This document shows, in pieces, positions 16,148 to 32,724 of a DNA stretch of 64,000 bases. Location of the stretch: the NCBI GenBank assembly GCA_009841265.1, contig VXMB01000009.1, forward strand, positions 229,911 through 293,910. The letters run 5' to 3'. Under the pieces are notes generated by a model. That model searched no databases, was not told the origin of the DNA, and saw nothing but the letters and a program-made list of their open reading frames with translations. A program made the translations under genes and the position numbers. The stretch is from Gemmatimonadota bacterium. Lineage in GTDB: Bacteria > JAAXHH01. The stretch's first letter is position 1, and the number at the start of each line of letters is the position of its first letter.

Positions 16148-16150
16148 CCC

Positions 16151-17641: not shown

Positions 17642-17705
17642 ATGACATATATTAGTCGCTACGTCGGAACATAGTCGGATGTCAATTTTCGAAAGGAGTA
17701 AAATC

Positions 17706-17957
17706 ATGAGAAGTGGCGATGAAATGTTAAAGCAGATCGTAGAGAAGTCCTCCCTGGATTCGGATTTCAGGCAAAAGCTGATCGCGGACCCGAAGTCGAC
17801 CATCTGTGAGGAACTGGACATTACGATGCCGGAATCCATGTCGATCCAGGTCCACGAAAGCGATATGCAGACGGTACATATCGCACTGCCCCCGGATGCG
17901 AATATCACCGAGGAGCAGCTTGAAGCCGTCTCGGCCGGACTCTGCTGCTGCTGGTAA
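17706..17957 (+). CDS. NHLP (nitrile-hydratase-leader-peptide) family RiPP precursor; predicted core LCCCW
   Basis: ORF 17679..17957; strong RBS aggag 7 nt before the second ATG (17706); leader KQIVEKSSLDSDFRQKLIADPKSTICEELDITMPESMSIQVHESDMQTVHIALPP...EEQLEAVSAG matches the NHLP consensus, including the EAV-[AS]-[GA]-G double-Gly-type cleavage site; followed by LCCCW-stop. Confidence 0.7.
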   Translation: MRSGDEMLKQIVEKSSLDSDFRQKLIADPKSTICEELDITMPESMSIQVHESDMQTVHIALPPDANITEEQLEAVSAGLCCCW

Positions 17958-18013
17958 ATCGAATCAACACACCGGTTGTCATGCGGATGCCTGGCAGTCG
18001 CATGATGTGGTAG

Positions 18014-18063
18014 ATAAAAAAAGTCCTCCCCGATCATCCTGGTCGAGGAGGACTTTTGCTTTG
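18014..18063. terminator. bidirectional rho-independent terminator between convergent genes
   Basis: AAAAAAAGTCCTCC-(18-nt loop)-GGAGGACTTTTGCTTT; perfect 8-bp GC-rich stem flanked by an A-run and a T-run. Confidence 0.6.
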
Positions 18064-18100
18064 ATGGCCTGACGTTTCGCTCGGTTCGAGCGAATGGCGT

Positions 18101-19219
18101 TCAGTTCGCGTGCGCACCGGAAAGCACCATGTATAGATAGGCCTTGGCCTGTGCCAGCCGGTTTCCGGATATGACCAGCTTGATGTGATGTATGCCTCGC
18201 AACATGAGAAAAGGCCCGGTCTTGCCAAACAATGTCGTGGGTTTGGAAGCCCAGTCCGCAAGGGCCGCGAGCTTCTCCGGAACGACATAATCCTCATAGC
18301 CCAACGCATCCAGAACGGGATCCCAGTCGGTCATGCCGTCGATCCAGTAACGGGAATCCTGCGTGTACCTCTGCTTGACGATGGGCGTCAGCCCGAGTGT
18401 GGGCCCCAGCCCGTCTGCCCGCACGTCTACGTTTAAGCCAGCGCTCACGATGTCCGCCCTTTCCCTCAGGCGCGCGAGCACGGATTCGACCGCGGAAACC
18501 TGCCCCGGCCATCCGGTGTTTTCAAGATAAGGGCCGATTCCGTCCTCCGCGCTGAAACCCATGATCGCCAGGCGGACCGTGCGCTTCCGGGACGGAAACA
18601 CGCCGAAGGAGTCCAGGCGCGTGTCTTCCGGTTGCGCCAGGTAGACCCGTTCGGCGTTTTCTCGCTCAGCGGCTATCCTTTCCCAACCGACGCTGGAAAC
18701 GAGGGCGTCGACCACGATGCCGACGTCATGCTGGAGTCCGGCGCCGCCGAACAGCGTGCGTTCGTTGGGCCGCAGAAACAGGCCCGGCAACGATTTTTCT
18801 TCACCCGGCGCCGAGCCTACGTCATACTCCAGCATCAGCTTCCGCCCCACGATCTCTCTCAGCGACGAATGCTCGGCTTCCATTTCCCCGAACAGCCGCC
18901 TTACCGCTCCAGCCGTTTCATCCGTCTCGTCTGTCCGCGCTTGCGCTTCAAAAAAGTCCCCCGATCGGTTTCCGCTTGCCAGCGAGACGCCGAAGTCCGC
19001 CACGGGCCGGCTATCGTGCAGCGGAAGTTCAAAACCGAAGGGCTGGGCGCCCATCGTTATGGGCAGTTGCGTCGATTGTTTCAGTACAAGCCCCCATTCC
19101 CGCGCTCCGATCAGACCGGGTGAAATCCCATTTCGCAACTGCGCCAGCAACTCGGCCATCGTTTCGCCCTCTATGGCGAGACGATCCTGGGTGTGCAGGA
19201 CGGCATCGTCGATATTCAC
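18101..19219 (-). CDS. hypothetical protein, last gene of the RiPP operon (candidate tailoring enzyme)
   Basis: 372 aa; 9-nt gap after the YcaO gene; no motif recognised. Confidence 0.4.
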   Translation of the reverse strand: MNIDDAVLHTQDRLAIEGETMAELLAQLRNGISPGLIGAREWGLVLKQSTQLPITMGAQPFGFELPLHDSRPVADFGVSLASGNRSGDFFEAQARTDETDETAGAVRRLFGEMEAEHSSLREIVGRKLMLEYDVGSAPGEEKSLPGLFLRPNERTLFGGAGLQHDVGIVVDALVSSVGWERIAAERENAERVYLAQPEDTRLDSFGVFPSRKRTVRLAIMGFSAEDGIGPYLENTGWPGQVSAVESVLARLRERADIVSAGLNVDVRADGLGPTLGLTPIVKQRYTQDSRYWIDGMTDWDPVLDALGYEDYVVPEKLAALADWASKPTTLFGKTGPFLMLRGIHHIKLVISGNRLAQAKAYLYMVLSGAHAN

Positions 19220-19228
19220 CTTGCCTCC

Positions 19229-21667
19229 TTACACGATGACCGGTGCGGGGTTCAATTCGGCCTCGGTCAGGGGTTGATTGCGAAAGCCCATGTCGACCGG
19301 CACGTCGTACAGGCGCCCCGGGGCGAATCTCGCCCAGAAATGGCGCATGCCCGGTACGATGACCCGCGCCACCGGCATGCCGATGTCCGGCCGGGTCTGG
19401 TCCAGCACGAGGAACTCCATGCCCCTGGCTTCGATCAGCGCGCGGCAGCAGTCCACGTCTTCCCGTGTATCCGCGGTCTCGATCGCCGGATACTGCGCGG
19501 CCTGCCTGAGCGGCGCGTCCGTCGACGGCGCCAGCCAGGCACAATCGGCGATTCGAGCCGTCTTCCACCAGTTTAGCGCCATGGGATCGTCGATCATGGG
19601 CTGGTTAGGTCGACCGGATCGGCCAGACTGTGCGGGCTGACCGGTTAGTCCGGACCGACCCGATTGACCGCCGCCTACGCTTCCACCGGGCCGGGGAAGC
19701 CACGTCAGGCACTGGTTCAACTCGCATAAGGCGCGCAGGGCCGCCAGTCGCGGGTCGGCATGGGCGCCCGCGCCGTATATGATGTCCTCGGTTTCCGCGT
19801 CCGGCCGCCGGGAAAGCGCAACGAAGGACGGAATGCCCGTATCGGACGTCACGTCGAGCATCCAGACCTCCCGCTCGCATCGTCCGTAATAGTCCGTGGC
19901 CGACGCGAGGAATGGGTCGTCAAAGCTGGAGAGATCCACCCCGGGGACGCTCAGCCGGTTATACCACCAGATGGCGAAGGCATCGCGCTCGACCAGTTCA
20001 TAGAAACCCTGCAGGATGGCCTCCTCCAGGGTGTTCCCCGCGGCGCAGCCGTTGGAATCGGCAATCACTTCGGCGGGTCCGCGCTGTTCCGGCGCCATGC
20101 TGTAGAGCATCGACGTCGGCAGGTATCGATGCCGTCCTTGCGTGAACGACCACACGGGCGTCCAGTCGATTTCGGCGGCGGGATTGAAACGAGGCGGGAC
20201 GATGTTGTAGGGGTGGCCTGCCGTGTTGATGCTTTCCGCGTTGTCGAGCTGGTCGTTACTGAACAACTGCACGTCGTTGGGGTGGATCGCCCGGTCTTCG
20301 GCGGCGAAATCGACGAATTGACCGCGGGTACGGATTTCGTCTCCGCTAAAAGCGCCTGAATGACGTTCGATCGCCTCGCAGAGGGCACTGGTCTCGGACT
20401 GTTCCCGCGTACTGCCCTTGCCGGCGCTTTTGCTGCGCAGGCTGCGCCTGAGCGAACTCAGGCTCCGGCTTCTCATACCGGGATTGCTCCCGGCCCAGTA
20501 GACGTGAAGCCAGGCGTCATGCTCACTGGTCGTGCGCGCCAGCCAGGTTACGATGCCGCTTACCGGGCTCACAAGGTGGCGGTATTGCGCCAGGGTGGCT
20601 TCCGGCGTCACGGCCCGCGCACCGCCGCTGTTGCGGTGGAGTTTGGGGCTGGCCTTGAGACGCAGCGGCACCGGCGGCCGGTCGGGCCGGTGCAGCGCTT
20701 CTTCGCCGCAGGCCGGACATTGCGGCCGGCGCAGGACCGTATGCGTCGAGCTCGCGACCGCGCCGACATGCAACGAAATTGCCTGTCCGTCGATCGGCGC
20801 CGATTCCTCCAGCACCAGCCACTTGACGATTTCAGCCGAAACCAGCCCGTATACCGCCTCAAGCGCGACAGGTTCGGCGGCGAACGGCTTGAAGGCGGCA
20901 TCCTCGCCGGCAACGTGCCGAAGGAACTGGTGGGCCTCCTTGTGGCCCCGTAGCCGGTGGGCCAGGCAGTCCCAGCAGGGGCCCTTCCGGTCCGCGTGAA
21001 AGACGGGTCCGAACAGCGCCTCCATGCCGTGCGGACGCACCAGCATCCACGGCGCTCCCGCCTCGAGCCGGCACCGATTCACCGCTGCAAACCGCGCGTC
21101 GAGGTAATCGTCGCATACGATAACCTTGAGCTGGACGTCGTCGTCGGCCACCACGTCGGCCACCACGCCGGCGCCGCTCGTTTCCAGCTGCCGGGACAGC
21201 CTTCCGTCGTCGCCGTCGACAGCGACGCGCGAATCCGCCAGCCGTTGTTCGACCCATCGGGGCGATGCGCCGAGGGACGTCCAGTATGCCGCCCGGGACC
21301 GGTCCATGCCATGATCGGCGGAGATGACATAGCCCCGGTCGGAGAGCGAAACGATCGCCGCGCGCACATCGGCCGCGGCATAGCGGCCCTCGAGGTCGGC
21401 GACGATGCCGGCCAGGGGACAGCGGCCGTCGAGAAGAGGAAGCAGATCGCAAAGCAGGGCGCCGTGCAGCAGTGTATCGAAGGACTCGGAAACCAGCAGC
21501 GTCTGCTGTGCGCCGATGACGTGGGATCGCAAGTGCGGGGTAAGCGCGGGAAGATCGACGAGGCCCAGGTCATCGGGGGTCGTTCTCGTGAGTTTCCCCT
21601 GGCGGGCATTCTTGCTGGTCGTCCCTGGCGTCCCGGGTTCCCGCGTCTTCTCGGCAGGCGCTTTCAT
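19229..21667 (-). CDS. fused E1-like docking domain / YcaO cyclodehydratase (TOMM heterocyclase, PatD/TruD-like architecture)
   Basis: 812 aa; N-terminal half with CxxC pairs (CWDC, QCPACG); C-terminal YcaO domain with LVSPVSGIV, SNGCAAGNTLEEAILQGFYELVERDA and a Pro-rich C-terminus; 4-nt overlap with the upstream gene. Confidence 0.8.
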   Translation of the reverse strand: MKAPAEKTREPGTPGTTSKNARQGKLTRTTPDDLGLVDLPALTPHLRSHVIGAQQTLLVSESFDTLLHGALLCDLLPLLDGRCPLAGIVADLEGRYAAADVRAAIVSLSDRGYVISADHGMDRSRAAYWTSLGASPRWVEQRLADSRVAVDGDDGRLSRQLETSGAGVVADVVADDDVQLKVIVCDDYLDARFAAVNRCRLEAGAPWMLVRPHGMEALFGPVFHADRKGPCWDCLAHRLRGHKEAHQFLRHVAGEDAAFKPFAAEPVALEAVYGLVSAEIVKWLVLEESAPIDGQAISLHVGAVASSTHTVLRRPQCPACGEEALHRPDRPPVPLRLKASPKLHRNSGGARAVTPEATLAQYRHLVSPVSGIVTWLARTTSEHDAWLHVYWAGSNPGMRSRSLSSLRRSLRSKSAGKGSTREQSETSALCEAIERHSGAFSGDEIRTRGQFVDFAAEDRAIHPNDVQLFSNDQLDNAESINTAGHPYNIVPPRFNPAAEIDWTPVWSFTQGRHRYLPTSMLYSMAPEQRGPAEVIADSNGCAAGNTLEEAILQGFYELVERDAFAIWWYNRLSVPGVDLSSFDDPFLASATDYYGRCEREVWMLDVTSDTGIPSFVALSRRPDAETEDIIYGAGAHADPRLAALRALCELNQCLTWLPRPGGSVGGGQSGRSGLTGQPAQSGRSGRPNQPMIDDPMALNWWKTARIADCAWLAPSTDAPLRQAAQYPAIETADTREDVDCCRALIEARGMEFLVLDQTRPDIGMPVARVIVPGMRHFWARFAPGRLYDVPVDMGFRNQPLTEAELNPAPVIV

Positions 21668-24105
21668 GCGTGTGCGGCGAGCGTATCGATCCGGGCGGCG
21701 GCGCGGGTGGCGGTTTCGTCGACCGCCGACGCCAGCGCATCGAAGTCCTGCTGCCCGCAGGCGTTCGCCACCAGGGATTTGACCTTCGCTCCCGCCGTTG
21801 CCGCGTCGAATCCGTCCTCTCCGACCAGCCGCATGACCCCCTGCAAGTCACGCCACAGGTTAGCGGCTTGCGCCAGCGGCTCGTCGCCGGCGGCATCGAA
21901 CACCGCCACGGCGGACGGCGCAGGATCGTCGAGGAAGTCACCGGCACGGTTCAACTGCAGGAAGCGCGCGGCCTGCTCGACATCGTTCAATCCGCCGGGC
22001 ATCTGGGCGTATGCGGACACACTCGTCTCTGCGCGGCCTGCCGGCTGTCCGCCCGATCCGGCGTACACCGCCGCGTCCGTACTGCATTCGGCCAGGACCC
22101 GGCGCCGCGCATCATCAAAGCGGCTTCCGATGCCGGAACCCTCGGTCTCGAAGACACAACGGGTCCGGGTGAGCACGGGAACCCCGCCGGAAGCCGGGTC
22201 ACGGGCTTGCTCGGCCAGATCGGAGAGCGATACCGCTGGCATGGCCTCCACGCCGGCGGAGACCGGGGAGAACAACAGGTTGTCCTGCGCCAGGTCGGCC
22301 AGGGCCTTGCGGAAACTCCGGCACAGGCGTTCATTCGCGCCGGACTGCGCGCCGTCATGGACGAACAGCATGTCGACCGCTACGCCGGGATAGGCTTCCC
22401 GGCTGGCCAGATCACCCAGGAAGATGGCGGCGACCTCGCCCACGCTGTCCGTGCCGTACCGCTCGCCGAAATCCGCCACCACGGAGGCAAGCACCGTCGA
22501 AACCGACGCTTCGGAGAGATTGGACAGCGCCGTCCGCGCCTCCGCCGGGAGCAGGTTTCCGCGCACCACGTGCATGCCGATCTGAAACGCCTTGTCGTTC
22601 GACCAGTTCCGCACGATCTCGGCGGTTTCCCTCGCGTCGACCACGGGCAACTCGACGATCAGGTCCTTCATTTCCTGAACGCCCATTTCGTAGGTCCAGT
22701 AGACCCGTGCAAGCCCGCGCCTTGCGATCGACTCGAACTCCTCGTCCTGCTCGAATCCCTTGGGCAGGTCGAGATCGAGGAATTCCTGTTCCTGCAGGTT
22801 ATCCAGGAGCTCCGGGTTCCGTTCGATCCATTTCGCGAGCCGCGGCGCGGCGCCAAATATCTCGACGATCATGTCAAAGGCGTCGGGACGCTTCGCGGCA
22901 AGGGGACTGTCGTAGACGCTCCAGTCTTCGATCTCCGGGTAGAAGTGCTTGCGCCACTGGTCCACCAGCGGGTCCATCTTTTCAAACCACTTTTTGGGCT
23001 TCAGGACGATGTTCATCATATCGGAGTAGGTGCCTGGCAGTTCCGGCGATTCGTCGAGACTGACCTGCAGCAGGGGATACTGGCGGGATGCCACCGCGTG
23101 ATGGTCGGCATGTCGCTGCGCATTGAAAAGCATCCAGTTGCTGAACTTCCAGTCGGCACTCCAGGAATGGCGGGGCATGATCTTCTCCCACCGGCCGTTT
23201 TCCAGGCGGACCCGGCGCAGGCCGTAGTGCTGGAAGTAGTTGCTGATCTTCATCGAAAAGACGCAGGACAGGCCGAGGAAGGCGAAGACCGGGACCGCCC
23301 AGATCCCGCCCATCCAGAAAACCAGTGCGTACCAGAACGCGACGCCGAAGCCGTAGCGCCAGAAGGGATTGCTGTAATGCCACATGGTCCGGCGGCGCCG
23401 TGCCAGGCGTTCTCGTGCCACTTCCCATGAATTGACGAGGTTGCTGACGATTTCCTTGGGCATGTACCGCCAGAAACTCTCCCCCTTCGGCGCGGACCCC
23501 ACGTCGTAGGGCGTGCCGACCAGGGCGTGGTGGATATAGACGTGCTCCGTGGCATACTGCGGATAGGAAGCGGAAGACAGCAGGAACTCGCCGATCCGGC
23601 GTTCCCAGGTCGTGCGCCGGTGAATCAGTTCGTGGCCTACCACGAACACGGCCTGTGCTTCCATCGTCAGTATGATGGCCAGCACAACGTCCTGCCACCA
23701 GACGAAGGGATCCGCCACCAGGATCTGCCACAGGCCGAAGACCAGGGTGGGCGGCCACAGAAACGCCCATGACCAGACCGGCAGATTGTGCCAGATCAGG
23801 CGGTGTTTCGGCGTCTTCCACGGATCCATTATGCGTCCGTCCCGTCCGAACACCCGGTCGAAGGACCAGGAAAGACTCATGAAGACCATGGGCGGCAGGA
23901 GCCACCATCCGCCCCACAACGCGGCGAGCAGAATCAACGGGAAAACGCCCAGCGGCAGGTAATGCGGGAGGGCGGTCAGGATGGACGGCTCGATCTCCTG
24001 CGTTGCATCGGCCTGGCCCGGTCCGGTGCCATTGGTTTCAGCGCGGTCGATTTCAACTGGATTTTGTGACATGGCTACACCTCCTTGGTCAGCATAACCT
24101 GGCAC
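21664..24105 (-). CDS. fusion: AlkB-like integral-membrane di-iron hydroxylase/desaturase (N) + GlnE-like nucleotidyltransferase domain (C)
   Basis: 813 aa; His boxes HELIHRR, EHVYIHH, NYFQHYGL and LFNAQRHADHHA align with the AlkB HELGHK/EHNRGHH/NYIEHYGL/LQRHSDHHA motifs; C-terminal FLGDLASREAYPGVAVDMLFVHDG matches the GlnE/GlnD NTase motif G-x-L-x-x-RE...D-x-D-L-x-F. Confidence 0.65.
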   Translation of the reverse strand: MPGYADQGGVAMSQNPVEIDRAETNGTGPGQADATQEIEPSILTALPHYLPLGVFPLILLAALWGGWWLLPPMVFMSLSWSFDRVFGRDGRIMDPWKTPKHRLIWHNLPVWSWAFLWPPTLVFGLWQILVADPFVWWQDVVLAIILTMEAQAVFVVGHELIHRRTTWERRIGEFLLSSASYPQYATEHVYIHHALVGTPYDVGSAPKGESFWRYMPKEIVSNLVNSWEVARERLARRRRTMWHYSNPFWRYGFGVAFWYALVFWMGGIWAVPVFAFLGLSCVFSMKISNYFQHYGLRRVRLENGRWEKIMPRHSWSADWKFSNWMLFNAQRHADHHAVASRQYPLLQVSLDESPELPGTYSDMMNIVLKPKKWFEKMDPLVDQWRKHFYPEIEDWSVYDSPLAAKRPDAFDMIVEIFGAAPRLAKWIERNPELLDNLQEQEFLDLDLPKGFEQDEEFESIARRGLARVYWTYEMGVQEMKDLIVELPVVDARETAEIVRNWSNDKAFQIGMHVVRGNLLPAEARTALSNLSEASVSTVLASVVADFGERYGTDSVGEVAAIFLGDLASREAYPGVAVDMLFVHDGAQSGANERLCRSFRKALADLAQDNLLFSPVSAGVEAMPAVSLSDLAEQARDPASGGVPVLTRTRCVFETEGSGIGSRFDDARRRVLAECSTDAAVYAGSGGQPAGRAETSVSAYAQMPGGLNDVEQAARFLQLNRAGDFLDDPAPSAVAVFDAAGDEPLAQAANLWRDLQGVMRLVGEDGFDAATAGAKVKSLVANACGQQDFDALASAVDETATRAAARIDTLAAHA

Positions 24106-24136: not shown

Positions 24137-25438
24137 TCAGGTTCGCAGGAAGGCGGCTAAACGCTCGAGCGCTTCGATACAGAACGCGGTGGTCACGGCT
24201 TCGGAGCCATGGCCTATTTGTCCTACCGCGCCGAACTTCAGTGTCTGATCGCCGAAGGCGAGCAGTTCCGGCCAACTGCCGTCCCCGCGTTGCGCGGTCA
24301 GGATGCGCCTCAACGGCCGCGTCGCGTCGGTCCTTTCCAGGCATCCCGCGTCGCAGAGCGTCGACACGGCCTGGGCGGTCTGCAGGACGTTGCCGTAACC
24401 GCCCTCTTCGTCCGCCAGGCCCAGGACACGATCCGCGAGGACCGGGCGCAGCCGATCCAGGGCGGGCGACACGCGTCGCACGGCCCGGGCGACCGCGTAA
24501 CAGATCGCGATCTCGTCGGGGTACCACTTGGACGCGTCCTTGAGATCGCCTTCGGTGATCAGCGCCTCCAGCCATCGCTGGGCATCCCTGGTTTCCGGGC
24601 AGTCGCCGAGCCAGGCGATGACGTTTGCGTTGACTACGGGGTCGGCTTCGATGCGAAATCGCGACACGACATCGGGTTCGTCGCCCTCCAGCATCCAGGT
24701 CATGAAGCGGCCTTCCCCATCGCGGTTCGCCAGTATCCGAGGTATGTTCCTCCCCAGCAGGATCCAGGGGTGCGTTCCGATCACCAGGGAACAGAGCGAG
24801 GTGCTGTCGAGATCCTGGGGAAGATGACGGTAATAGCGCCAGAATCCGGGATATTCGATGGTGTCGACCAGATAAGTGCTGGTCGCGGTGCAGATGGATC
24901 TGGCCTTCGCTTCCCGGCAATTTTCCAGGGCAAGGACGCAGAACGCCGAAATGAAGGGAGGCCTTTCGAAGTGCCGCGGCACCTTCGGATCGGCCACGTT
25001 GAACCGGATGCAGTGCCAGGCGCCATGCTCGTCTATCGTCGACTCAAGGAAGTCAAGGCCACGGCGGATGCTTTCTCTGGCCGCTTCCGCCAGCACCTCG
25101 GCGCCGGCGTCGCTACCGGGGACGCGCCCCGCCTCGTCACCCGGCGGCCGTAGGGGCGGGGCGGGATCGTGCATGGTCTTGCGCAGAAACGCGAAGGACG
25201 ACGCGCCGGTGCGCGCCTCCTCCCGTTCCTCCCTGGTAAATCGGTTGCGAGGGGGCAGGACGATATGGGTCGCGGCGGCGGTCTCTTCGTGCACGTGAAT
25301 CTCGTGGTCTTCAGCCATCGTCACGCCGAACTCCTGCTCGATGGTCTCTTTGGGCCTGGCAAGGAGACGTTTCCTCAATTCGTCGTCGTCGCCCGCTTTC
25401 AAGATAAGTAAATCGACCGCATTAGAGGACTTTTTCAT
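24137..25438 (-). CDS. NHLP-leader-like N-terminal domain fused to an alpha/alpha-toroid (prenyltransferase/terpene-cyclase-like repeat) domain
   Basis: 433 aa; the N-terminus DLLILKAGDDDELRKRLLARPKETIEQEFGVTMAEDHEIHVHEETAAATHIVLPP is NHLP-like but has no GG/core; the C-terminus carries repeated ...EEGGYGN...Q / ...RGDGSWPE...G-hairpin-like motifs. Confidence 0.55.
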   Translation of the reverse strand: MKKSSNAVDLLILKAGDDDELRKRLLARPKETIEQEFGVTMAEDHEIHVHEETAAATHIVLPPRNRFTREEREEARTGASSFAFLRKTMHDPAPPLRPPGDEAGRVPGSDAGAEVLAEAARESIRRGLDFLESTIDEHGAWHCIRFNVADPKVPRHFERPPFISAFCVLALENCREAKARSICTATSTYLVDTIEYPGFWRYYRHLPQDLDSTSLCSLVIGTHPWILLGRNIPRILANRDGEGRFMTWMLEGDEPDVVSRFRIEADPVVNANVIAWLGDCPETRDAQRWLEALITEGDLKDASKWYPDEIAICYAVARAVRRVSPALDRLRPVLADRVLGLADEEGGYGNVLQTAQAVSTLCDAGCLERTDATRPLRRILTAQRGDGSWPELLAFGDQTLKFGAVGQIGHGSEAVTTAFCIEALERLAAFLRT

Positions 25439-25488: not shown

Positions 25489-28440
25489 TCAGGCGATTTG
25501 CCGCCTGATCAGTTCCTTGAATACCCCGTCGGTCTCCTTCAGTTCGTTGAAAGAGCCGCTTTGGACGACCTTGCCGGCTTTCAGCACGTAGATGCGATCG
25601 GCCTGCTCGAGCGTGGACAGGCGATGGGCGATGACGAGGCGAGTGGAAGTCAGCGCGGCCAGGTTCCGCATCACGCTGGACTGGTTCTCGTTGTCCAGCC
25701 AGTTCGTCGCCTCGTCGAACAACATGATACGCGGGCTGCCGATCACCGAGCGGGCGATCGTGATGCGCTGGCTCTCGCCGCCCGACAGAACGGAACCGCT
25801 GGTGCCCACCATGGTCATCATGCCCATGGGCATGGCCTTGATCTGGTCTTCGACCTCGGCGGTCCGGACCGCCGCCCATACTTCATCGGTCGACACGCCT
25901 TCATAGTGGCTGACGAGGTTGTCCCAGAGATCCTGGGGATGGAGTCCGACCGATTGGGGTACCGCGCCGATCTTCCGGCGCACCTGTTTCAGATTCAGGT
26001 GCCTCAGGTCGCGCCCGTCGTAGTATACCGCCCCGGCGGTCGGCCAGTCGATGCCGAGCGCAAGCCGGAACAGGGTGCTCTTCCCGGCGCCGGATTCCCC
26101 GGCAATGGCGACGAATTCGCCGGGATGAGCGCGAATCGTTACGTCGTCGAGGATCAGTGGTCCGTCGGCGTCGTAGCGGAAAGAAACATGATCGAACAGG
26201 ATGTCCCCGCCCAGGTATTCGACCGGTTCGCCTTCCGTACCCGTCTCAGGCGCCGCCGAAAGCAGCGGACGCATCTGCTCGAAGGCCGGCAGCATGGAGG
26301 CCAGGGCGCCGATGGACTCGCCGAGCCGGGCGATGGTGGACTGAAACACGATGAAGACCGTGTAAACGACGAGAAAATCGCCGACCGGCATGTTGCGATC
26401 TCCCGCCTCCATTACCGTGAACAGGAGCACGCCGGCGGCAAGGAATGGCAGTGCGGCACCAAATGCCCGAGAATGCCCCTCCAGTGCGCCCAGTTCGATC
26501 TCCGCGCGCTTCTGTGCGCGATAATCCCGTGCCCAGATGGCGTAAGCCGAACCTTCCGCGTTATCCATGCGCAGCTTGGAAATGCCCCCCACGATCTGGA
26601 AGAGCCGGCCGGCCACGCGCCGGGCCGCCCTGATCATCCATCCGTATGGAGAGATCTGGCGCAATCCCAGCACCAGGGTGACCAGCAGCGAAACCAGGCT
26701 GAAGAGGAGGGTGACGATCCCGAGGGTGGTGTCGTAGAAGAAGATGACGCCGAAAACCGGAAGCAGGAATACCAGCGACAGGAAACAGTTGGCGACGACC
26801 CCCCGCAATCCGTCGCGGAGTTGCTGAAAGGTCATTCCCGACATGGCCAGGTCGCCCGCCGGATTGCGGTGCAGCATGCCGGGTGGAAGACGCATGAGAC
26901 GGTCCCAGAAGGCGGCTTCGACTCGGGAGGCCGAGCGCCCCTCCAGCCGCATCATCGCCATGTTCTGGAGCAGGTGCAGCATTGCGCCGAGCAGGCCGAA
27001 GGCCGCAATCGCCACGGCGACCGCGTATAGCATTCCAGCGCTTCCACCCGTCGTGATGTGGTTCGCTACGTACCCGAGGGCGAGCGCCGGCAGCAGCCGG
27101 ATCATGCCGTATGGAAGCCCGGCGATCACCATCCGTGCCCAGTCCGAGGCCGAGCCGCGCAGGGCGATGCCCAGCAGGTCCGCCGGTTTCACACCCCTTG
27201 CCGGCAGGGGCTGATAGAACATCCAGGCCTCTTCCGCCAGCGCGTCCGAACCGGCCAGGCGGGCCGCCGAGACCCGTGTGCGTCGATTGCCGGCCGGGTC
27301 AATTTGACGGTATCGTCCGAACATGCCCGGCAGCAGCGCCACGGGCCGACCGTCGTCGGCGCGGTAGGCCAGCAGCGCGTTGCTGTCACCGTGCCACCAG
27401 CGGTCCTCGGCGTTGAAACGCACGCGCCGGGCGCGCACGCCGGAAGCGTCAAGTATGTCCACGAGGCCGACGGGGGTTTCGGATTGGCCCGATCGCGCCG
27501 GGATCTTGAAATCGATGCCTTCATGACGGCCGATCAGCTGCAGGGCATCCGCAAGTGCCGTATCCTCGGCACCGTCATCCCGGTCGGTCGGAAGGTCGTA
27601 GATATTGTAGAGTCGCTGACGCGCGGTGTTCTCGGCCGTTCGGCGGCTCGCTGTCCGCGCCCGTTCGAGATTGACGGCATCTACAACGACCAGCCGGCGG
27701 TTCAGGCGCTCCAGGGTGAATGCGACCGCGTGGAACGAGGCGAGTGCCGCCAGCAGCCTGCCCTGCCGGGCCAGTGTTTCCGTTGACTGACCGGTCAGCG
27801 TCGCCTCGTCGACCAGGGTGAGCCAACTCGTCCGGGCCAGCGGGATGACCGTCTCGTGGGGGCTGCCCGTCTCCGCAAGTTCCGCCGTGTCGACGATCCC
27901 CATGAACAGGCCCGCGCCGGACGGCGGTTCAGAGATCCATACCACGCCGCGACGGACGGACAACGTACAGGGCGCCAGCGTCTGCGTCAGGCCGGGTTCG
28001 GCCAGCGCGGTCGGACGGGGAGGGGGGATGGCGAAACGCGCCAGCGTCTCCGTAATGGCGGTCAGCCACGTGTCGGTCTGTTCCGCCAGTTCCGCTGGAT
28101 CCACCCGGGACAGCAGGGAAGCCGGCAGACGCTTGAGCAGGGTGCCCGGCATTCCCCTGGCGATGATACTGAGCGTGGTGTCTGTTTCACCGCCCAACCG
28201 GTGCGGCGCGACCCCCGGCAGCAGCCAGCCCGATTCCCGGCGCAATAAGTGCTGCGGCGCCGCCTGCTCCGTCCCGTTTTTGAGTTCGACCAGGAACAGG
28301 TTGACGACGCCCTGGTCGATGAACCAGACGCTGTCCCGGTCGTCGAGGTAGACGGGCAGGTTACCTGCGCAGGGCACGGATTCGCCGAAGCGATCGGCGA
28401 GTTCGGCCAATGGCGAGTATTTCGGTTCGTTGGGCTGCAT
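25489..28440 (-). CDS. NHLM-type bacteriocin ABC transporter, second ATP-binding/permease subunit with a cNMP-binding-like N-domain (no peptidase)
   Basis: 983 aa; N-terminal ~150 aa non-peptidase domain, 6-TM permease, Walker A GESGAGKST, signature LSGGESQRITIARS, Walker B IMLFDEAT. Confidence 0.75.
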   Translation of the reverse strand: MQPNEPKYSPLAELADRFGESVPCAGNLPVYLDDRDSVWFIDQGVVNLFLVELKNGTEQAAPQHLLRRESGWLLPGVAPHRLGGETDTTLSIIARGMPGTLLKRLPASLLSRVDPAELAEQTDTWLTAITETLARFAIPPPRPTALAEPGLTQTLAPCTLSVRRGVVWISEPPSGAGLFMGIVDTAELAETGSPHETVIPLARTSWLTLVDEATLTGQSTETLARQGRLLAALASFHAVAFTLERLNRRLVVVDAVNLERARTASRRTAENTARQRLYNIYDLPTDRDDGAEDTALADALQLIGRHEGIDFKIPARSGQSETPVGLVDILDASGVRARRVRFNAEDRWWHGDSNALLAYRADDGRPVALLPGMFGRYRQIDPAGNRRTRVSAARLAGSDALAEEAWMFYQPLPARGVKPADLLGIALRGSASDWARMVIAGLPYGMIRLLPALALGYVANHITTGGSAGMLYAVAVAIAAFGLLGAMLHLLQNMAMMRLEGRSASRVEAAFWDRLMRLPPGMLHRNPAGDLAMSGMTFQQLRDGLRGVVANCFLSLVFLLPVFGVIFFYDTTLGIVTLLFSLVSLLVTLVLGLRQISPYGWMIRAARRVAGRLFQIVGGISKLRMDNAEGSAYAIWARDYRAQKRAEIELGALEGHSRAFGAALPFLAAGVLLFTVMEAGDRNMPVGDFLVVYTVFIVFQSTIARLGESIGALASMLPAFEQMRPLLSAAPETGTEGEPVEYLGGDILFDHVSFRYDADGPLILDDVTIRAHPGEFVAIAGESGAGKSTLFRLALGIDWPTAGAVYYDGRDLRHLNLKQVRRKIGAVPQSVGLHPQDLWDNLVSHYEGVSTDEVWAAVRTAEVEDQIKAMPMGMMTMVGTSGSVLSGGESQRITIARSVIGSPRIMLFDEATNWLDNENQSSVMRNLAALTSTRLVIAHRLSTLEQADRIYVLKAGKVVQSGSFNELKETDGVFKELIRRQIA

Positions 28441-30650
28441 CAGTTCGACCTGACCAGTTTGTAGTACGTGCTGTCCCGGTCGGCGATCAACTCGTCGTGC
28501 GTGCCCCGTTGTACCGTAATGCCCTGGTCCAGCACGATGATCTCATCGCAGTCCCGCACGGTACTCAGGCGGTGCGCCACGATCAGGCAGGTGACCCCGC
28601 GCCGCCGCAGCGCATCATCGACGTATTCCTCCGTGGCCGCATCGAGGGCGCTGGTGGCCTCGTCCAGGATGAGCACCGTGGGGTTGCCCACCAGCGCGCG
28701 GGCGATTTCCAGCCGTTGGCGCTGGCCGCCGCTGAAGTTCGCCCCTCCTTCTTCGACGAGCGTCGCATAGCCGTGGGGCCTGAGCAGGACTTCGTCGTGA
28801 ATCTGGGCGTCCCGCGTCGCGGCAAAGAGGACTTCGTCCGGGATGGCCGGGTTCCACAGCGTGATATTGTCGCGCAGGGACGCGGAAAAGAGCACGATCT
28901 CCTGGTCCACCATGGAGATGGATTGCCGCAGCACCTCCTCGGGGATCTGATCGCGCAAATGGTCGTCAAACATGATCTCGCCCGACCAGGGCTGGTAGAC
29001 CCCCGATACAAGCCGCGCGAGGGTCGATTTGCCGGATCCGCTTGGACCGACCACGGCGATCCGCTGGCCCGGTTTGATCTCGAGGCTGAAGTCCTTGATC
29101 AGGGGCGGCCGGCTCCGGTTGTAACCGAAGGTGACGTTACGCAGTTCCAGCTGGCCGGCGAGCTGGAGCCGGCCGTTGAACGTGTGTATCGCATCCGATT
29201 CCGGGTTTCTGCGACGAAAGACCGGATCCTCATCGGTTTTGGATATGTCCTCGAGCCGTTGCAGATCGGTTTCGAGGGCCTGGCGGTTTTCGGCGAACTC
29301 CAGGAAGCGCTCGACGGGGGCCAGGAACATCTCCGCCAGGATGAAGAATCCCACCAGCATGCCCAGCGACATTTCTCCCTGCATGACCATCATGCCGCCG
29401 ATGCCCAGGATCGCCGCACTGCGCAGCGCGTCGACCAGTCCCGGCAGCGAGGCGTTGACGGAGCCCAGTTCCGAATACAGCTGTCGTGCGCGCAACTCCC
29501 GGGCCTGTTGCCCGCTCCATCGCGAGAAAAACCGGTCGTCCGCCCCCGTCATCCGCAGATTGTCGGCATGGCTCAGCATCTGCATGCCGAGACCGATCAG
29601 CAACCCCTGCTCCCGCCTCATCGTCTGACTGCGGACGGCTCTGAGGTTGTTGAGAAAACGGGCAAGCACCGCGTGCAGCAGCGCCAGCACGATCACGATC
29701 AGCGTGAGTACGGTGTCGAAGGCGAACATCGCAATGAGGAACACCGCGCTCATGGCCATGTCGATCACGAGCACCAGGAACTGGTCCGCCAGGTTTTTGG
29801 CGATTCGGTCGGTGGACGACACCCGGTCAGTGATGTCGCCGGCCAGCCTGTTTTCAAAGAACTCCACCGGCAGGCGAAGCAGCCGTGACATCCCGTTGCT
29901 GTAGCCGGCTACCGATACACGGACCGCGAGCCGCTTGAGGAACCGGTGCTTGAGGAGAGACAGGACATACACCAGCACGCCTCCGCCCAGCAAGGCGGTT
30001 ACCAATCCGCCCCAGGTCCCGTGCTTAGCCATGACGTCGTCGACGAAAACGCCGAGCGATGCCGGAACGACCAGGGTCAACATCGTCAGCATGAGTCCGC
30101 AGGCCACCACGCCGGTCAGCAGTCGCCATGACCCGGCGATCAGGCCGTTCAGTTGCCTGAACAGGTCGGGTTGCTCGCCGCCGGGCGTAAAGTCCTCGCC
30201 GCGCTTGAAGCGAAGCGCAATGCCGCTGTAGCTCTTCTCGAACTCTTCGGCGGTGACCCTGCGCCGTCCCGTGGAAGGGTCGTTGAGATAGTAGTAGCGG
30301 CTGTCGATTCCTTCGAGGACGAGGAAATGGCTGAACTGCCAGAACAACACCAGCGGAAATTCCAGCATTTTCAGTTGCTCGGCGCGCACGCTGAGGCCGT
30401 TACACTCGAGACCGTAGTGCCGGGAGGCACGCAGGATGCTCGCGGCACTGCTTCCGTCCCGGCTCACCTCGCATTTTTCCCGCAGTTCGGTGAGCGGCAC
30501 CCATCTCCCGAAGTATCCCAGTACGATGCCGAGACAGGCCGCGCCGCACTCCGATGCGTGCATCTGCAGCAGAACGGGCGTGGATATCCGCTGCGCCGAG
30601 TCGTCCGCGGCGTTCTTGTTGCCGGCTTGTTTGGTCGTGCTCACCGTCAT
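28440..30650 (-). CDS. NHLM-type bacteriocin ABC transporter with N-terminal C39 peptidase domain (leader-cleaving exporter)
   Basis: 736 aa; C39 catalytic Cys context QMHASECGAACLGIVLGYFG, TM domain, Walker A GPSGSGKST, LSGGQRQR, ILDEATSALD. Confidence 0.8.
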   Translation of the reverse strand: MTVSTTKQAGNKNAADDSAQRISTPVLLQMHASECGAACLGIVLGYFGRWVPLTELREKCEVSRDGSSAASILRASRHYGLECNGLSVRAEQLKMLEFPLVLFWQFSHFLVLEGIDSRYYYLNDPSTGRRRVTAEEFEKSYSGIALRFKRGEDFTPGGEQPDLFRQLNGLIAGSWRLLTGVVACGLMLTMLTLVVPASLGVFVDDVMAKHGTWGGLVTALLGGGVLVYVLSLLKHRFLKRLAVRVSVAGYSNGMSRLLRLPVEFFENRLAGDITDRVSSTDRIAKNLADQFLVLVIDMAMSAVFLIAMFAFDTVLTLIVIVLALLHAVLARFLNNLRAVRSQTMRREQGLLIGLGMQMLSHADNLRMTGADDRFFSRWSGQQARELRARQLYSELGSVNASLPGLVDALRSAAILGIGGMMVMQGEMSLGMLVGFFILAEMFLAPVERFLEFAENRQALETDLQRLEDISKTDEDPVFRRRNPESDAIHTFNGRLQLAGQLELRNVTFGYNRSRPPLIKDFSLEIKPGQRIAVVGPSGSGKSTLARLVSGVYQPWSGEIMFDDHLRDQIPEEVLRQSISMVDQEIVLFSASLRDNITLWNPAIPDEVLFAATRDAQIHDEVLLRPHGYATLVEEGGANFSGGQRQRLEIARALVGNPTVLILDEATSALDAATEEYVDDALRRRGVTCLIVAHRLSTVRDCDEIIVLDQGITVQRGTHDELIADRDSTYYKLVRSN

Positions 30651-31428: not shown

Positions 31429-32724
31429 CTAAACCGGCGCCTGTCGGCCGGTCCAGCCCAGTCCCTGGGACATCTGTGCGTAACTGGTGAGCGGCACCGC
31501 GCACATCCGGTGCCAGTCGGCTTTGTCGATGACCGGCCGGTTCAGCAGTTCGAGCATCCCATCGAATCTGCCGAGTGCATCGCAATCCACCGCCTCGGGA
31601 TCCATGGCCTTTCGGTGCCGGGGCCAGGCTCGTTCTCGCGCGTGGCGCCAGAACGCGCCGTCGTAAATCGAACCGCAGGCATAGTGCCAGCCGACGAAAA
31701 GGCCGTAGCAGAGCATGTTGTTGATGAGAAACCGGTTGACCGAGGGCGCGTCGCGCCCGAGATGCGCCGCCGGCCGATTGAGGCGCGTCTGGAGCACCAT
31801 CCCGACCTGCAGTTGAGCGGACACGATCGCCGTCGCCTCGAGGGGCTCCATGAAAGCCGCCGCGTTGCCGATGCGGGCCACGGCGCCGTCATAGATCCGG
31901 CGATGGACGAAGTTCGGAAACGGGATGACGGCCCGTTGCTCGAATTCAGCCACGCCGTCGGTCTCCAGGAATGCGTCAAAGTCCGATTCGACTTCCGCAA
32001 GGTCGGATACGTCGCGGTTGAAGATGTACCCGTAAGACGTGTGCACCGTCAACGGAATGACGAATATCCAACCGTGAGGACGGGCAACCGCCCGCGTGTA
32101 GGTATGTTGCCGTACCGGTCCGTTCCGCCCGTCTTCGATGATCGTCGGGCAGCGCCGGATGACGGCGGTATTGGTAGGGATGAAAGAAATGTCGATGTGC
32201 TGATCGGGGTGCAGTTCCTTCGGAAACCCACGGGCATCGAAGACCAGGTCGTAGCGTTCCGACTCCCGGCCCTCGAATTCCACCTGCGCGCCGTCCTCCA
32301 CCCTGGTGATGTCGAGCACTTTCGCGTCGATGTGGCGCGCGCGCGTGCCTTCACGCAGCAGGTCCGCCATCAGGTCGGCGGACAGGTGGTAGGCGTAAGA
32401 CACTTGCTGTGGGGTGAAGTAGTGGGTGAAATCCCGGTCGCGCCGGCCCCATCCCTCGAAGGCGACACCGTACTTGCGTGTGCCCTTCAAACGTTGCTGG
32501 ACGGTCTCATGGGGCAGCCCCGTCAGTTTCTGCAGTTCCTGCACCAGGCTCGGCCAGCTGCCTTCTCCCACCCCGATGACCGGAATGCGCGAGTCATAGA
32601 TGTGGTGCAGCTCGTGGTCGCCGTCGGGGTGAAGACGCGTTACGCTGGCGGCCGCCAGGGATCCTGCGGTCCCCTGCCCGATAACGGCGATCTTCCGTAA
32701 CGATTCCGCGCCCGGCTGGATCAT
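31429..32724 (-). CDS. flavin-dependent halogenase family (tryptophan-halogenase-like) protein
   Basis: 431 aa; FAD motif IAVIGQGTAGSLAA, IGVGEGSWP (cf. GVGEAT), GWIFVIPL (WxWxIP with the second W replaced by F), AAAFMEPLEATAI (cf. FIEPLESTGI). Confidence 0.65.
   Translation of the reverse strand: MIQPGAESLRKIAVIGQGTAGSLAAASVTRLHPDGDHELHHIYDSRIPVIGVGEGSWPSLVQELQKLTGLPHETVQQRLKGTRKYGVAFEGWGRRDRDFTHYFTPQQVSYAYHLSADLMADLLREGTRARHIDAKVLDITRVEDGAQVEFEGRESERYDLVFDARGFPKELHPDQHIDISFIPTNTAVIRRCPTIIEDGRNGPVRQHTYTRAVARPHGWIFVIPLTVHTSYGYIFNRDVSDLAEVESDFDAFLETDGVAEFEQRAVIPFPNFVHRRIYDGAVARIGNAAAFMEPLEATAIVSAQLQVGMVLQTRLNRPAAHLGRDAPSVNRFLINNMLCYGLFVGWHYACGSIYDGAFWRHARERAWPRHRKAMDPEAVDCDALGRFDGMLELLNRPVIDKADWHRMCAVPLTSYAQMSQGLGWTGRQAPV

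What the first reader, a model, noticed from the sequence alone, without database searches (positions are those of the whole stretch)
24137..25438. NHLP leader-like domain fused in cis to an alpha/alpha-toroid enzyme-like domain
Residues ~8-60 (DLLILKAGDDDELRKRLLARPKETIEQEFGVTMAEDHEIHVHEETAAATHIVLPP) resemble the NHLP leader but lack a GG site and core. They continue through a Pro/Gly linker into a ~330-aa domain with repeated GGYG / DGSW hairpin motifs typical of prenyltransferase/squalene-cyclase-type (or LanC-like) alpha/alpha toroids, without obvious LanC zinc ligands. A leader fused to an enzyme-like domain suggests either a built-in leader mimic that activates or recruits the modification machinery in trans, or a scaffold that docks to the same site as the true precursor.
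Basis: partly seen in the sequence, partly recalled or inferred. Interest (0 to 1): 0.75.

Follow-up and report, generated by a model that had tools for sequence, protein, structure and literature searches.

The report
Leader-like domain fused to terpene cyclase
A gene in a sponge-symbiont peptide-antibiotic-type cluster encodes a copy of the cluster's own precursor "leader" fused to a small terpene-cyclase enzyme. This suggests that these widespread peptides also receive a cyclised lipid, and that the enzyme uses a leader look-alike to join the modification machinery.

Summary
Window 24137-25438, on the minus strand, encodes a 433-aa protein. Residues 1-78 align without gaps to the cluster's true NHLP precursor, SrpE-like with core LCCCW, at 17706-17957 on the plus strand. 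Residues 114-433 are an alpha/alpha barrel. The cluster is the published sponge "srp" proteusin cluster, with a YcaO cyclodehydratase and a Trp brominase.

The barrel is neither LanC nor a prenyltransferase beta subunit. [quoted passage not shown]

The leader copy keeps the folded NHLP core and the Gly aligned with the cleavage site. It has lost the hydrophobic residues needed for C39 cleavage and brominase binding: Arg replaces Leu(-7) and Ala replaces Val/Ile(-4) in 80 of 80 species.

The neighbouring 372-aa protein is homologous to the N-domains of natural "X + cyclase" fusions, and it recurs beside a stand-alone cyclase in another NHLP cluster.

Best reading: the 372-aa protein prenylates the core, probably on its C-terminal Trp. 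This cyclase then cyclises the prenyl chain, and the leader paralogue docks the cyclase into the leader-dependent complex. The enzyme identity is well supported. The prenylation step and the docking role are inferred.

The parts
24137..25438 (-). Whole ORF, 433 aa plus stop: leader paralogue fused to a class II cyclase. By gene order it is probably the srpA position of the srp cluster; that name is an inference.
   Evidence: A 100% identical protein, P0001, comes from a Gemmatimonadetes MAG. Relatives occur in 299 species-level genomes.
25205..25438 (-). Residues 1-78: NHLP-leader paralogue. It comprises helices 6-17, 19-27 and 29-37, a beta-hairpin at 48-60, LPP at 61-63 and a degenerate leader C-part at 64-78 that ends in the invariant G78.
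   Evidence: TIGR03793 E=4e-11, model positions 7-63. Gapless alignment to SrpE. AlphaFold2 secondary structure. 71% mean pairwise identity over 80 species.
25142..25204 (-). Residues 79-99: highly conserved junction, A(A/S)SLEFLRKTMHDPAPPLRPP. It is absent from stand-alone cyclases and its role is unknown.
   Evidence: S81, L85, T88, P92, A93, P94 and R97 are invariant in 80 of 80 species. 77% mean pairwise identity. Stand-alone relatives start at about residue 115.
25100..25141 (-). Residues 100-113: the only variable stretch, and so the true linker.
   Evidence: 26% mean pairwise identity and 2.43 bits entropy.
24140..25099 (-). Residues 114-433: monodomain class II terpene cyclase-like (alpha/alpha)6 barrel.
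24800..24814 (-). D209-L-D211-S212-T213: the putative general-acid motif. The family consensus is PPDLDDTA.
   Evidence: D211 is invariant and D209 at least 90% conserved in 67 diverse family members. The motif aligns with DDLDTTS of drimenol synthase, whose D333N mutant sits at this Asp. DLDS(T/S)x occurs in 71 of 80 species.
18101..19219 (-). 372-aa protein with no known family: the inferred partner of the cyclase, a candidate peptide prenyltransferase.
   Evidence: No Pfam, NCBIfam or PDB sequence hits. Homologous to the N-domains of 667-691 aa fusions that carry the cyclase at their C-terminus (hhalign 99.2%, E=2e-19). A homologue sits beside a stand-alone cyclase in L008 (99.7%, E=3.5e-27). 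Present in 64 of 65 loci.
17706..17957 (+). True precursor, SrpE-like: 83 aa, NHLP leader ending ...EAVSAG, core LCCCW.
   Evidence: TIGR03793 61.8 bits, above the cutoff of 50.9, covering model positions 4-77. Core LCCCW in 58 of 60 loci. Identity with SrpE from PMC10858898.
19229..21667 (-). Fused E1-like/RRE + YcaO cyclodehydratase (SrpC-like).
   Evidence: PF02624 1.2e-92, TIGR03882 2.7e-40, winged-helix domain at residues 43-114.
21664..24105 (-). Membrane fatty-acid desaturase/AlkB-like domain fused to a GlnE-like nucleotidyltransferase domain. It is a core operon member of unknown role.
   Evidence: PF00487 3.1e-25, NF010706 8.3e-22. Present in 63 of 65 loci.
25489..30650 (-). Two NHLP-type export ABC proteins: ABC2 (25489-28440) and the C39-peptidase transporter PCAT (28440-30650).
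   Evidence: TIGR03797 8.9e-195 and TIGR03796 7.5e-261. The PCAT lies within 10 kb in only 39 of 51 fully flanked loci.
31429..32724 (-). Flavin-dependent Trp halogenase (SrpI-like brominase).
   Evidence: PF04820 4.6e-44. Role from PMC10858898 and PMC10286304.

Best explanation
The protein is a tailoring enzyme of the sponge-symbiont srp proteusin pathway. It consists of a duplicated, uncleavable copy of the precursor's NHLP leader fused to an MstE-type monodomain class II terpene cyclase.

Proposed course of events:
1. The 83-aa precursor (leader plus LCCCW) is bound through its leader by the YcaO enzyme, which forms thiazolines, and by the halogenase, which brominates the C-terminal Trp. 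Both steps are published.
2. The neighbouring 372-aa protein attaches an isoprenoid chain to the core, most likely to the Trp. This is inferred.
3. The cyclase domain protonates the terminal double bond of that chain with Asp211 of the DLDST motif and folds the chain into rings. The fold and the motif are shown; the chemistry is inferred.
4. The leader-paralogue domain and the conserved junction (residues 1-99) do not serve as substrate or export signal. They act as a docking module that holds the cyclase in the leader-dependent modification complex. The YcaO protein is the most likely partner. This is inferred, and the partner is not identified.
For: Cluster identity:
- The core LCCCW, the YcaO enzyme and the brominase match the published srp system.

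Cyclase identity:
- AlphaFold2 model with mean pLDDT 85.9.
- The family profile hits drimenol synthase at E=4e-31 and squalene-hopene cyclase (SHC) at 3.6e-27.
- D211 is invariant in 67 diverse relatives and aligns with the mutated catalytic Asp of AsDMS D333N.
- MstE itself uses DxD rather than DxDD (PMC12414744).

Peptide-linked role:
- The gene sits in an invariant operon: desaturase in 63, YcaO in 64 and the 372-aa protein in 64 of 65 loci.
- The 372-aa family is the N-domain of natural fusions to this cyclase family.
- The same gene pair flanks an NHLP precursor with a Trp-containing core in the unrelated cluster L008.
- A fusion gene in L007 follows an ORF ending in ...SGW.
- Published precedent: NctPC and ChrPC are prenyltransferase + MstE-like cyclase enzymes that geranylgeranylate and then cyclise on Trp of ribosomal peptides (review PMC13290415).
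- Cyclase-domain distances track the 372-aa protein best (r=0.75, partial 0.55).

Docking rather than cleavage:
- The N-domain is nearly as conserved as the enzyme (71% versus 78%).
- Arg72 and Ala75 replace the -7 and -4 hydrophobic residues in 80 of 80 species.
- 12 of 51 fully flanked loci lack a PCAT within 10 kb.
- The NHLP fusion occurs only in srp-type clusters, which have a YcaO with an RRE domain. The stand-alone cyclase in the YcaO-less cluster L008 has no such domain.
Against: - No prenyltransferase is demonstrated. The 372-aa family has no detectable similarity to ABBA or trans-IDS prenyltransferases, to Pfam or to PDB sequences.
- I could not read the two key papers (JACS 2021 on srp; Chem 2024 on NctPC/ChrPC). 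Homology of these proteins to NctPC is therefore unverified, and the srp authors may already have annotated this gene.
- The third Asp of DxDD is Ser here.
- The alpha1 residues equivalent to the YcaO-RRE contacts of MprE7 differ between this domain and SrpE, and the L(X)4L motif is broken. Binding to the YcaO RRE in the manner of a leader is therefore not expected from known rules.
- Residual co-variation of the N-domain with any partner is weak (partial r at most 0.21, not tested for significance).
- No interdomain geometry could be read from the model.
Confidence: 0.5

Rival explanations
1. The leader-like domain is a genuine double-glycine-type export signal. The C39 peptidase-ABC transporter next door cuts after G78 (or after GA/GG) and exports the cyclase, which then acts outside the cytoplasm.
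For: - Gapless co-linearity with SrpE up to the cleavage Gly, and G78 invariant in 80 of 80 species.
- 10 of 80 species have TGG at this position.
- The PCAT and its partner ABC gene lie directly upstream in the same operon in the window.
- The hydrophobic residue at -12 is kept in 76 of 80 species.
Against: - Invariant Arg at -7 and Ala at -4. Established double-glycine leaders, and SrpE itself, have Leu and Val/Ile there.
- Positions 64-77 of the TIGR03793 model, the cleavage motif, are not matched.
- The PCAT is absent within 10 kb in 12 of 51 loci that keep the fusion.
- The 21 residues after G78 are highly conserved, as expected for a structural element.
- Isoprenoid diphosphate donors are cytoplasmic (general knowledge).
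Confidence: 0.1
2. The leader paralogue works within its own polypeptide. It occupies, gates or caps the cyclase, like an engineered leader-enzyme fusion. This would make the enzyme constitutively competent or auto-inhibited until the real precursor arrives, rather than docking it to another protein.
For: - Engineered leader-to-enzyme fusions (LctM, LynD) activate RiPP enzymes (own knowledge).
- The conserved junction 79-99 is modelled with pLDDT of about 84 next to the barrel.
- MstE needs a mobile loop to cap its active site (PMC12414744), and this junction is absent from stand-alone relatives.
- Cyclase-domain distances also track the SrpE leader (partial r 0.50).
Against: - Stand-alone homologues of about 320 aa in NHLP clusters work without any such domain.
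- No leader-binding element (RRE) is detectable in the barrel.
- The N-domain is modelled with only moderate confidence (pLDDT 50-83) and no contact data were available.
Confidence: 0.17
3. The leader paralogue recognises the substrate by pairing with the precursor's own NHLP fold. In this leader-leader heterodimer the enzyme uses a paralogue of the leader in place of an RRE.
For: - The folded NHLP nucleus is retained and conserved, while the enzyme-binding motifs are lost.
- The nucleus of SrpE is dispensable for the brominase (PMC10858898). It is therefore free for another partner.
Against: - The published NMR and SAXS work on MprE7, as summarised in the text read, gives no hint of dimerisation.
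- After controlling for the cyclase domain, N-domain distances do not track the SrpE leader (partial r -0.17).
- SrpE is far more conserved than the N-domain (mean distance 0.17 versus 0.28).
Confidence: 0.1
4. The barrel is not a peptide-tailoring cyclase. It might be a binding or immunity protein for the product, a cyclase for a free isoprenoid, or a LanC-like or protein-prenyltransferase-like enzyme.
For: - Only weak direct Pfam hits (SQHop_cyclase_C 2.2e-5, below its cutoff).
- The third Asp of the acid motif is replaced by Ser.
- The alpha/alpha barrel fold is shared with binding proteins (TED domains, cobalamin binders).
Against: - The central Asp is invariant and the pocket-lining aromatic residues are conserved.
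- The gene is locked in an operon with RiPP enzymes in 64 of 65 loci.
- Fusions to P450 and sulfotransferase domains, and to the 372-aa family, point to small-molecule tailoring.
Confidence: 0.08

Closest known systems
MstE (merosterolic acid synthase, PDB 6sbb) and other monodomain class II terpene cyclases (6ij1 'prenylcyclase', 8paj/8pak)
   Different: Only 16-20% sequence identity. It carries a 113-residue N-terminal extension made of an NHLP-leader paralogue and a conserved junction. The predicted head group is a ribosomal peptide rather than a benzoate.
[quoted passage not shown]
   Same: An MstE-like cyclase domain working with a peptide prenyltransferase on a Trp-containing RiPP precursor. 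The cyclase family here also occurs fused to several kinds of N-domain, including the 372-aa family.
   Different: Here the two activities are separate genes and the cyclase is instead fused to a leader paralogue. The partner's prenyltransferase nature is unproven. The pathway also contains a YcaO enzyme and a brominase. Direct sequence comparison with NctPC and ChrPC was not possible.
NHLP leader peptides of proteusins (TIGR03793; SrpE, MprE7 structure 8tb1)
   Same: Same fold elements (three helices, beta-hairpin, LPP) and co-linear with SrpE through all 78 leader positions. Profile hit to 8tb1.
   Different: Scores below the family cutoff (42.6-46.3 versus 50.9). It lacks the L(X)4L/-4 hydrophobic pattern, has a different alpha1 surface, and is followed by a 355-residue enzyme rather than a short Cys/Ser/Thr-rich core.
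Engineered leader-enzyme fusions (LctM-leader, LynD-leader; own knowledge, not checked here)
   Same: A leader sequence covalently attached to a RiPP tailoring enzyme.
   Different: Those are artificial. They carry the authentic leader and are attached to the enzyme that normally binds that leader. This one is natural, has diverged from the leader at the known contact residues, and sits on an enzyme family that otherwise has no leader-binding domain.

Membership tests
NHLP leader peptide family (TIGR03793) | HMM score at or above the curated cutoff (50.9 bits) | tested here: not met
   42.6 bits for the whole protein and 46.3 for residues 1-110. SrpE from the same window scores 61.8.
NHLP leader peptide family (TIGR03793) | Folded nitrile-hydratase-alpha-like nucleus (three helices, beta-hairpin, Pro-rich stop) | tested here: met
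   Model positions 7-63 are matched. NHase alpha chains score E about 1e-6 and 8tb1 scores 1.9e-4. AlphaFold2 gives H6-17, H19-27, H29-37, E48-53 and E56-60.
NHLP leader peptide family (TIGR03793) | C-terminal L(X)4L / hydrophobic -12, -7, -4 pattern with GG/GA/AG cleavage site | tested here: not met
   -7 is Arg and -4 is Ala in 80 of 80 species. Only -12 (F/L/Y) and the -1 Gly are kept. Model positions 64-77 are unmatched.
NHLP leader peptide family (TIGR03793) | Short modifiable core peptide after the leader | tested here: not met
   A 355-residue conserved junction plus enzyme domain follows.
Class II terpene cyclase, monodomain (MstE type) | (alpha/alpha)6 beta-domain barrel, single domain | tested here: met
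Class II terpene cyclase, monodomain (MstE type) | General-acid Asp in a DxD(D/T) motif at the barrel centre | tested here: met
   D209-L-D211-S-T. D211 is invariant in 67 relatives whose consensus is PPDLDDTA. It aligns with DDLDTTS of AsDMS, whose D333N mutant is at this Asp. The third position is Ser rather than Asp.
Class II terpene cyclase, monodomain (MstE type) | Protonation-initiated cyclisation of an isoprenoid chain | not testable with these tools
   Needs an enzyme assay.
RiPP prenyltransferase + cyclase systems (NctPC/ChrPC type) | MstE-like cyclase encoded with a ribosomal precursor that carries Trp | tested here: met
   SrpE core LCCCW occurs in 58 of 60 loci. Related cyclases sit next to ...YGYWEG... 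(L008) and ...SGW (L007) ORFs.
RiPP prenyltransferase + cyclase systems (NctPC/ChrPC type) | A peptide prenyltransferase domain or partner | tested here: inconclusive
   The 372-aa partner is homologous to the N-domains of cyclase fusions (hhalign 99.2%). It shows no similarity to ABBA-like N-domains, Pfam or PDB sequences.
RiPP prenyltransferase + cyclase systems (NctPC/ChrPC type) | Sequence homology to NctPC or ChrPC themselves | not tested
   The primary paper (PMC11484575) and the sequences are not held.
LanC-like lanthionine cyclase | LanC barrel with Cys-Cys-His zinc site | tested here: not met
Protein prenyltransferase beta subunit | Closest fold and PF00432 repeats | tested here: not met
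srp (sponge-derived RiPP proteusin) gene cluster | NHLP precursor with LCCCW core, YcaO cyclodehydratase and Trp brominase, in sponge-associated bacteria of many phyla | tested here: met
   description in PMC10858898 and bioRxiv 10.1101/2023.06.09.544420. The 80 loci come from at least 10 phyla, many from sponge-named MAGs.

The most novel reading that the evidence does not exclude
Nature has built a leader mimic into a tailoring enzyme. A duplicated precursor leader, stripped of its cleavage and brominase-binding motifs, serves as the recruitment module of a terpene cyclase. The ubiquitous sponge srp peptides would then be brominated, thiazoline-containing peptide-terpenoid hybrids whose lipid part has so far been overlooked. 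This would be the first natural case of leader-paralogue-mediated enzyme assembly in RiPP biosynthesis.
Probability: 0.3. Interest if true: 0.8.

Novelty: new variant of a known kind. Interest (0 to 1): 0.62.

Why it matters
The srp cluster is among the most widespread and most highly transcribed biosynthetic clusters in sponge microbiomes. Here it occurs in 299 species-level genomes across at least 10 phyla. In the literature I could read, its final product and the roles of four of its core genes are not described.

Recognising a class II terpene cyclase and a likely partner transferase in the invariant core operon predicts a lipidated, cyclised product. It also gives concrete mass shifts to look for in sponge extracts.

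The published difficulty in getting the YcaO enzyme SrpC to work alone (PMC10286304) could be connected to missing partners such as this protein.

For RiPP enzymology, a natural leader-paralogue fused to an enzyme offers a new, testable principle for how tailoring enzymes without RRE domains are brought to large protein-like leaders. It could also be copied in pathway engineering.

Tried and rejected
- **Second precursor with a giant core, or PCAT cargo.** Considered and down-weighted because of the invariant Arg(-7) and Ala(-4) and the loci without a PCAT.
- **First structure prediction.** With only close orthologues it was poor (pLDDT 68). Adding distant stand-alone relatives fixed it (pLDDT 85.9).
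- **Assigning the 372-aa protein.** Pfam and NCBIfam, phmmer and profile searches against PDB and hhalign against the ABBA-like N-domains of other cyclase fusions all came back negative.
- **BLASTP of the 372-aa protein.** The comparison with P0198 gave nothing. The comparison with P0188 gave a weak lead (E=0.003) that profile methods then confirmed.
- **Source names.** Cluster-member look-up gave no informative names.
- **Contexts of three further stand-alone cyclases.** These lay on contigs too short to be informative.
- **Key papers not held.** JACS 2021 (PMC8780398), ACS Chem Biol 2022 (PMC9746716) and Chem 2024 (PMC11484575) could not be read.
- **afdb50 fold library.** Unavailable.
- **Mirror-tree co-variation for the N-domain.** Weak and not significance-tested. 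I give it little weight.
Full report
**Observation.**
The finding's coordinates delimit a real ORF, but on the minus strand: 433 codons from ATG at 25438 to a stop at 24137-24139. A GGAG lies about 9 nt upstream, 50 nt after the stop of the preceding ABC gene.
- Residues 9-66 match the NHLP leader model TIGR03793 (E=4e-11, 42.6 bits, curated cutoff 50.9, model positions 7-63 of 77) and Pfam NHase_alpha (5.9e-6).
- A profile of orthologues hits nitrile hydratase alpha chains (E about 1e-6) and the NMR structure of the NHLP MprE7, 8tb1 (1.9e-4).
- The quoted GGYG and DGSW motifs are present.
- The similarity is far beyond chance. In a six-frame search of the window, the only other match to the N-terminus is an 83-aa ORF on the opposite strand (phmmer E=2.3e-12).

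**Context.**
That ORF (17706-17957, plus strand) is MRSGDEMLKQIVEK...ITEEQLEAVSAG/LCCCW. A core of LCCCW, a fused E1-like/RRE-YcaO enzyme (19229-21667), a Trp halogenase (31429-32724) and NHLP-type ABC exporters (25489-30650) identify the locus. It is the published srp (sponge-derived RiPP proteusin) cluster:
- SrpE is the precursor.
- SrpC is the YcaO enzyme that makes three thiazolines.
- SrpI is a leader-dependent brominase of the C-terminal Trp (PMC10858898, PMC10286304, bioRxiv 10.1101/2023.06.09.544420).

None of the srp papers I could open mentions the 433-aa protein. The original description (JACS 2021) is not held. By gene order the protein would be "SrpA", but that is my inference.

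**Distribution.**
- The identical protein comes from a Gemmatimonadetes MAG.
- Relatives of at least 65% identity occur in 299 species-level genomes. The best 80 span Gemmatimonadota, Latescibacterota, Nitrospirota, Nitrospinota, Acidobacteriota, Binatia, Alpha-, Gamma- and Deltaproteobacteria and others, and many are MAGs named after sponges.
- In 65 loci with at least 8 kb downstream, the desaturase fusion is present in 63, the YcaO enzyme in 64 and the 372-aa protein in 64.
- In 51 loci with both flanks, the precursor is present in 46, the halogenase in 45 and the C39 transporter in only 39.
- The 433-aa gene therefore belongs to the invariant four-gene core of the cluster.

**The C-terminal domain.**
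- Direct Pfam hits are weak (SQHop_cyclase_C 2.2e-5).
- An exhaustive search of 1.8 billion representatives found 467 relatives at E up to 1e-10. Most are stand-alone proteins of 300-340 aa that align to residues about 115-428 at 30-45% identity. Others are fused to P450, sulfotransferase, DUF2332 or uncharacterised N-domains.
- In an alignment of 67 of them, the consensus around residue 211 is PPDLDDTA. This is the DxDDTA acid motif of class II terpene cyclases. D211 is invariant and D209 nearly so.
- With this alignment AlphaFold2 gave mean pLDDT 85.9, above 90 over most of the barrel.
- The family profile hits drimenol synthase at E=4e-31 and squalene-hopene cyclase (SHC) at 3.6e-27. The motif aligns with DDLDTTS of drimenol synthase, where the deposited D333N mutant marks the catalytic Asp.
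- The srp proteins carry DLDS(T/S)x in 71 of 80 species. MstE itself works with DxD (PMC12414744), so a Ser at the third position is compatible with catalysis.

**The partner.**
- The last gene of the operon (18101-19219, 372 aa) has no Pfam, NCBIfam or PDB sequence match.
- Its family profile matches the N-terminal domains of three 667-691 aa representatives whose C-terminal domain is this cyclase (hmmsearch; hhalign probability 99.2%, E=2e-19 over 329 columns).
- The closest well-assembled stand-alone cyclase (P0134, 44% identical) lies in a different NHLP cluster (L008). There it sits next to a 366-aa homologue of the 372-aa protein (hhalign 99.7%, E=3.5e-27) and an NHLP precursor ending ...AISGG/ECYGYWEGYDPP. 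That cluster has a C39 transporter but no YcaO enzyme.
- One fusion gene (L007) follows an ORF ending ...SHSGW.
- The pair "372-aa family + cyclase" is therefore a recurring two-part module of peptide clusters whose precursors carry Trp.
- A 2026 review describes exactly such modules. NctPC (alpha-beta-beta-alpha prenyltransferase + MstE-like cyclase) and ChrPC (trans-IDS-like prenyltransferase + cyclase) prenylate Trp of ribosomal peptides and then cyclise the chain (PMC13290415, citing Hubrich et al. 2024).
- Other representatives here have N-domains of those two kinds: a weak Trp_DMAT hit in P0198 and a DDxxD-type helical domain in P0196.
- I could not show that the 372-aa family is itself a prenyltransferase.

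**The N-terminal domain.**
- Aligned with SrpE it is gapless over all 78 leader positions, and its invariant G78 falls on the precursor's cleavage-site Gly.
- The folded nucleus is kept: three helices, a hairpin and LPP.
- Across 80 species the residue aligned with Leu(-7) is always Arg, and the one aligned with Val/Ile(-4) is always Ala. Position -2 is Thr rather than Ala or Gly.
- Those hydrophobic positions form the L(X)4L motif. Published work shows this motif is required for SrpI binding, for C39 protease recognition and for beta-strand pairing with the YcaO RRE (PMC10858898, PMC12455567).
- One face of helix alpha1 sets YcaO specificity for NHLPs. It also differs: E6, K/Q9, Q10, E/D13 and S/A16 in SrpE against D/N6, D/E9, L/F10, S/L13 and G16 here.
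- Yet the domain is under strong constraint: 71% mean pairwise identity, against 78% for the cyclase. The following 21 residues, A(A/S)SLEFLRKTMHDPAPPLRPP, stand at 77%. Only residues 100-113 behave as a linker (26%).
- The fusion is found only in srp-type clusters, including the most distant fused representatives (57-67% identity).
- The architecture looks like a precursor gene duplicate fused to a downstream cyclase gene and then specialised.

**Mechanism.**

Shown:
- The identity of the cluster.
- The cyclase fold and acid motif.
- The leader paralogy and its specific degeneration.
- The obligatory operon.
- The recurrent pairing with the 372-aa family.

Inferred:
- The 372-aa protein prenylates the core, probably on Trp.
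- The cyclase then cyclises the chain using D211.
- Residues 1-99 dock the cyclase to the leader-dependent machinery.

I favour the YcaO protein as the docking partner for two reasons. The fusion co-occurs with a YcaO/RRE enzyme, whereas the YcaO-less cluster L008 has a bare cyclase. After controlling for the cyclase domain, N-domain distances also lean slightly towards YcaO (partial r 0.14-0.21) rather than SrpE (-0.17). These numbers are weak and untested for significance. The same analysis ties the cyclase domain most strongly to the 372-aa protein (r 0.75).

Three alternatives remain open and are listed with their tests: an intramolecular cap or activator, leader-leader pairing, and a cleavable export signal.

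**Comparison and novelty.**
The barrel meets the testable criteria of a monodomain class II cyclase. The N-domain is a homologue of NHLP leaders but fails three of the four family criteria, so I would not call the protein an NHLP precursor.
- Known: the srp cluster, MstE-type cyclases and peptide prenyltransferase-cyclase enzymes.
- New, as far as the accessible literature shows: the placement of such a cyclase module in the srp core operon, which implies a terpenoid part in the product.
- Also new: the natural fusion of a degenerated leader paralogue to a tailoring enzyme.

I rate it a new variant of a known kind with interest 0.62. One caveat applies: two primary papers that might already mention it could not be read.

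Noticed in passing
window 21664-24105 (-): An 813-aa fusion of a membrane fatty-acid desaturase/AlkB-like domain (PF00487 3e-25) with a GlnE-like nucleotidyltransferase region (NF010706 8e-22, residues 493-585). It is an invariant member of the srp core operon (63 of 65 loci). Its role in a peptide pathway is unexplained.
   Followed up: partly
window 30658-31215 (-): A 185-aa protein matching only positions 6-57 of the 421-position NHLP HlyD-type secretion protein model. Proteins of the same short size (175-184 aa) occupy the same position in L005 and L006. It therefore looks like a conserved short form rather than a broken gene.
   Followed up: partly
window 17679-17957 (+): The mechanical ORF for the precursor is 92 aa, but orthologues start at its tenth codon (MRSG...). 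That gives 17706-17957, 83 aa and 252 bp, which matches the '252 bp' highly transcribed gene reported in sponge metatranscriptomes.
   Followed up: yes
window 32838-38023 (-) and 36-44 kb: Directly beyond the halogenase lie a 1106-aa DUF499 protein, a 427-aa AAA_21/AAA_15 ATPase and an overlapping 209-aa ORF with no family. This looks like a defence-type island. GC content drops from about 0.63 to 0.42-0.55 between 36 and 44 kb.
   Followed up: partly
L001 (6.1-Mb contig), 10001-18774: Here the srp core operon is followed by a phage-type integrase gene. No precursor or halogenase lies within 10 kb. This suggests mobility or decay of the cluster in some genomes.
   Followed up: no
L008 9093-12077: A distinct NHLP cluster with core ECYGYWEGYDPP. 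It contains a stand-alone MstE-like cyclase, a homologue of the 372-aa protein, a methyltransferase, an FAD-binding protein and PhyH-type oxygenases, but no YcaO enzyme. It is probably another peptide-terpenoid pathway.
   Followed up: partly
L009-L088, residue aligned with window protein position 79: In 10 of 80 species the sequence after the invariant G78 is Gly (TGG) rather than Ala (TGA), which recreates a Gly-Gly pair at the position aligned with the precursor's cleavage site.
   Followed up: no
Representatives P0186, P0257, P0231, P0185, P0201: The same cyclase family is also found fused to cytochrome P450, sulfotransferase and DUF2332 domains. This points to a wider and largely unannotated set of small-molecule tailoring modules.
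   Followed up: no
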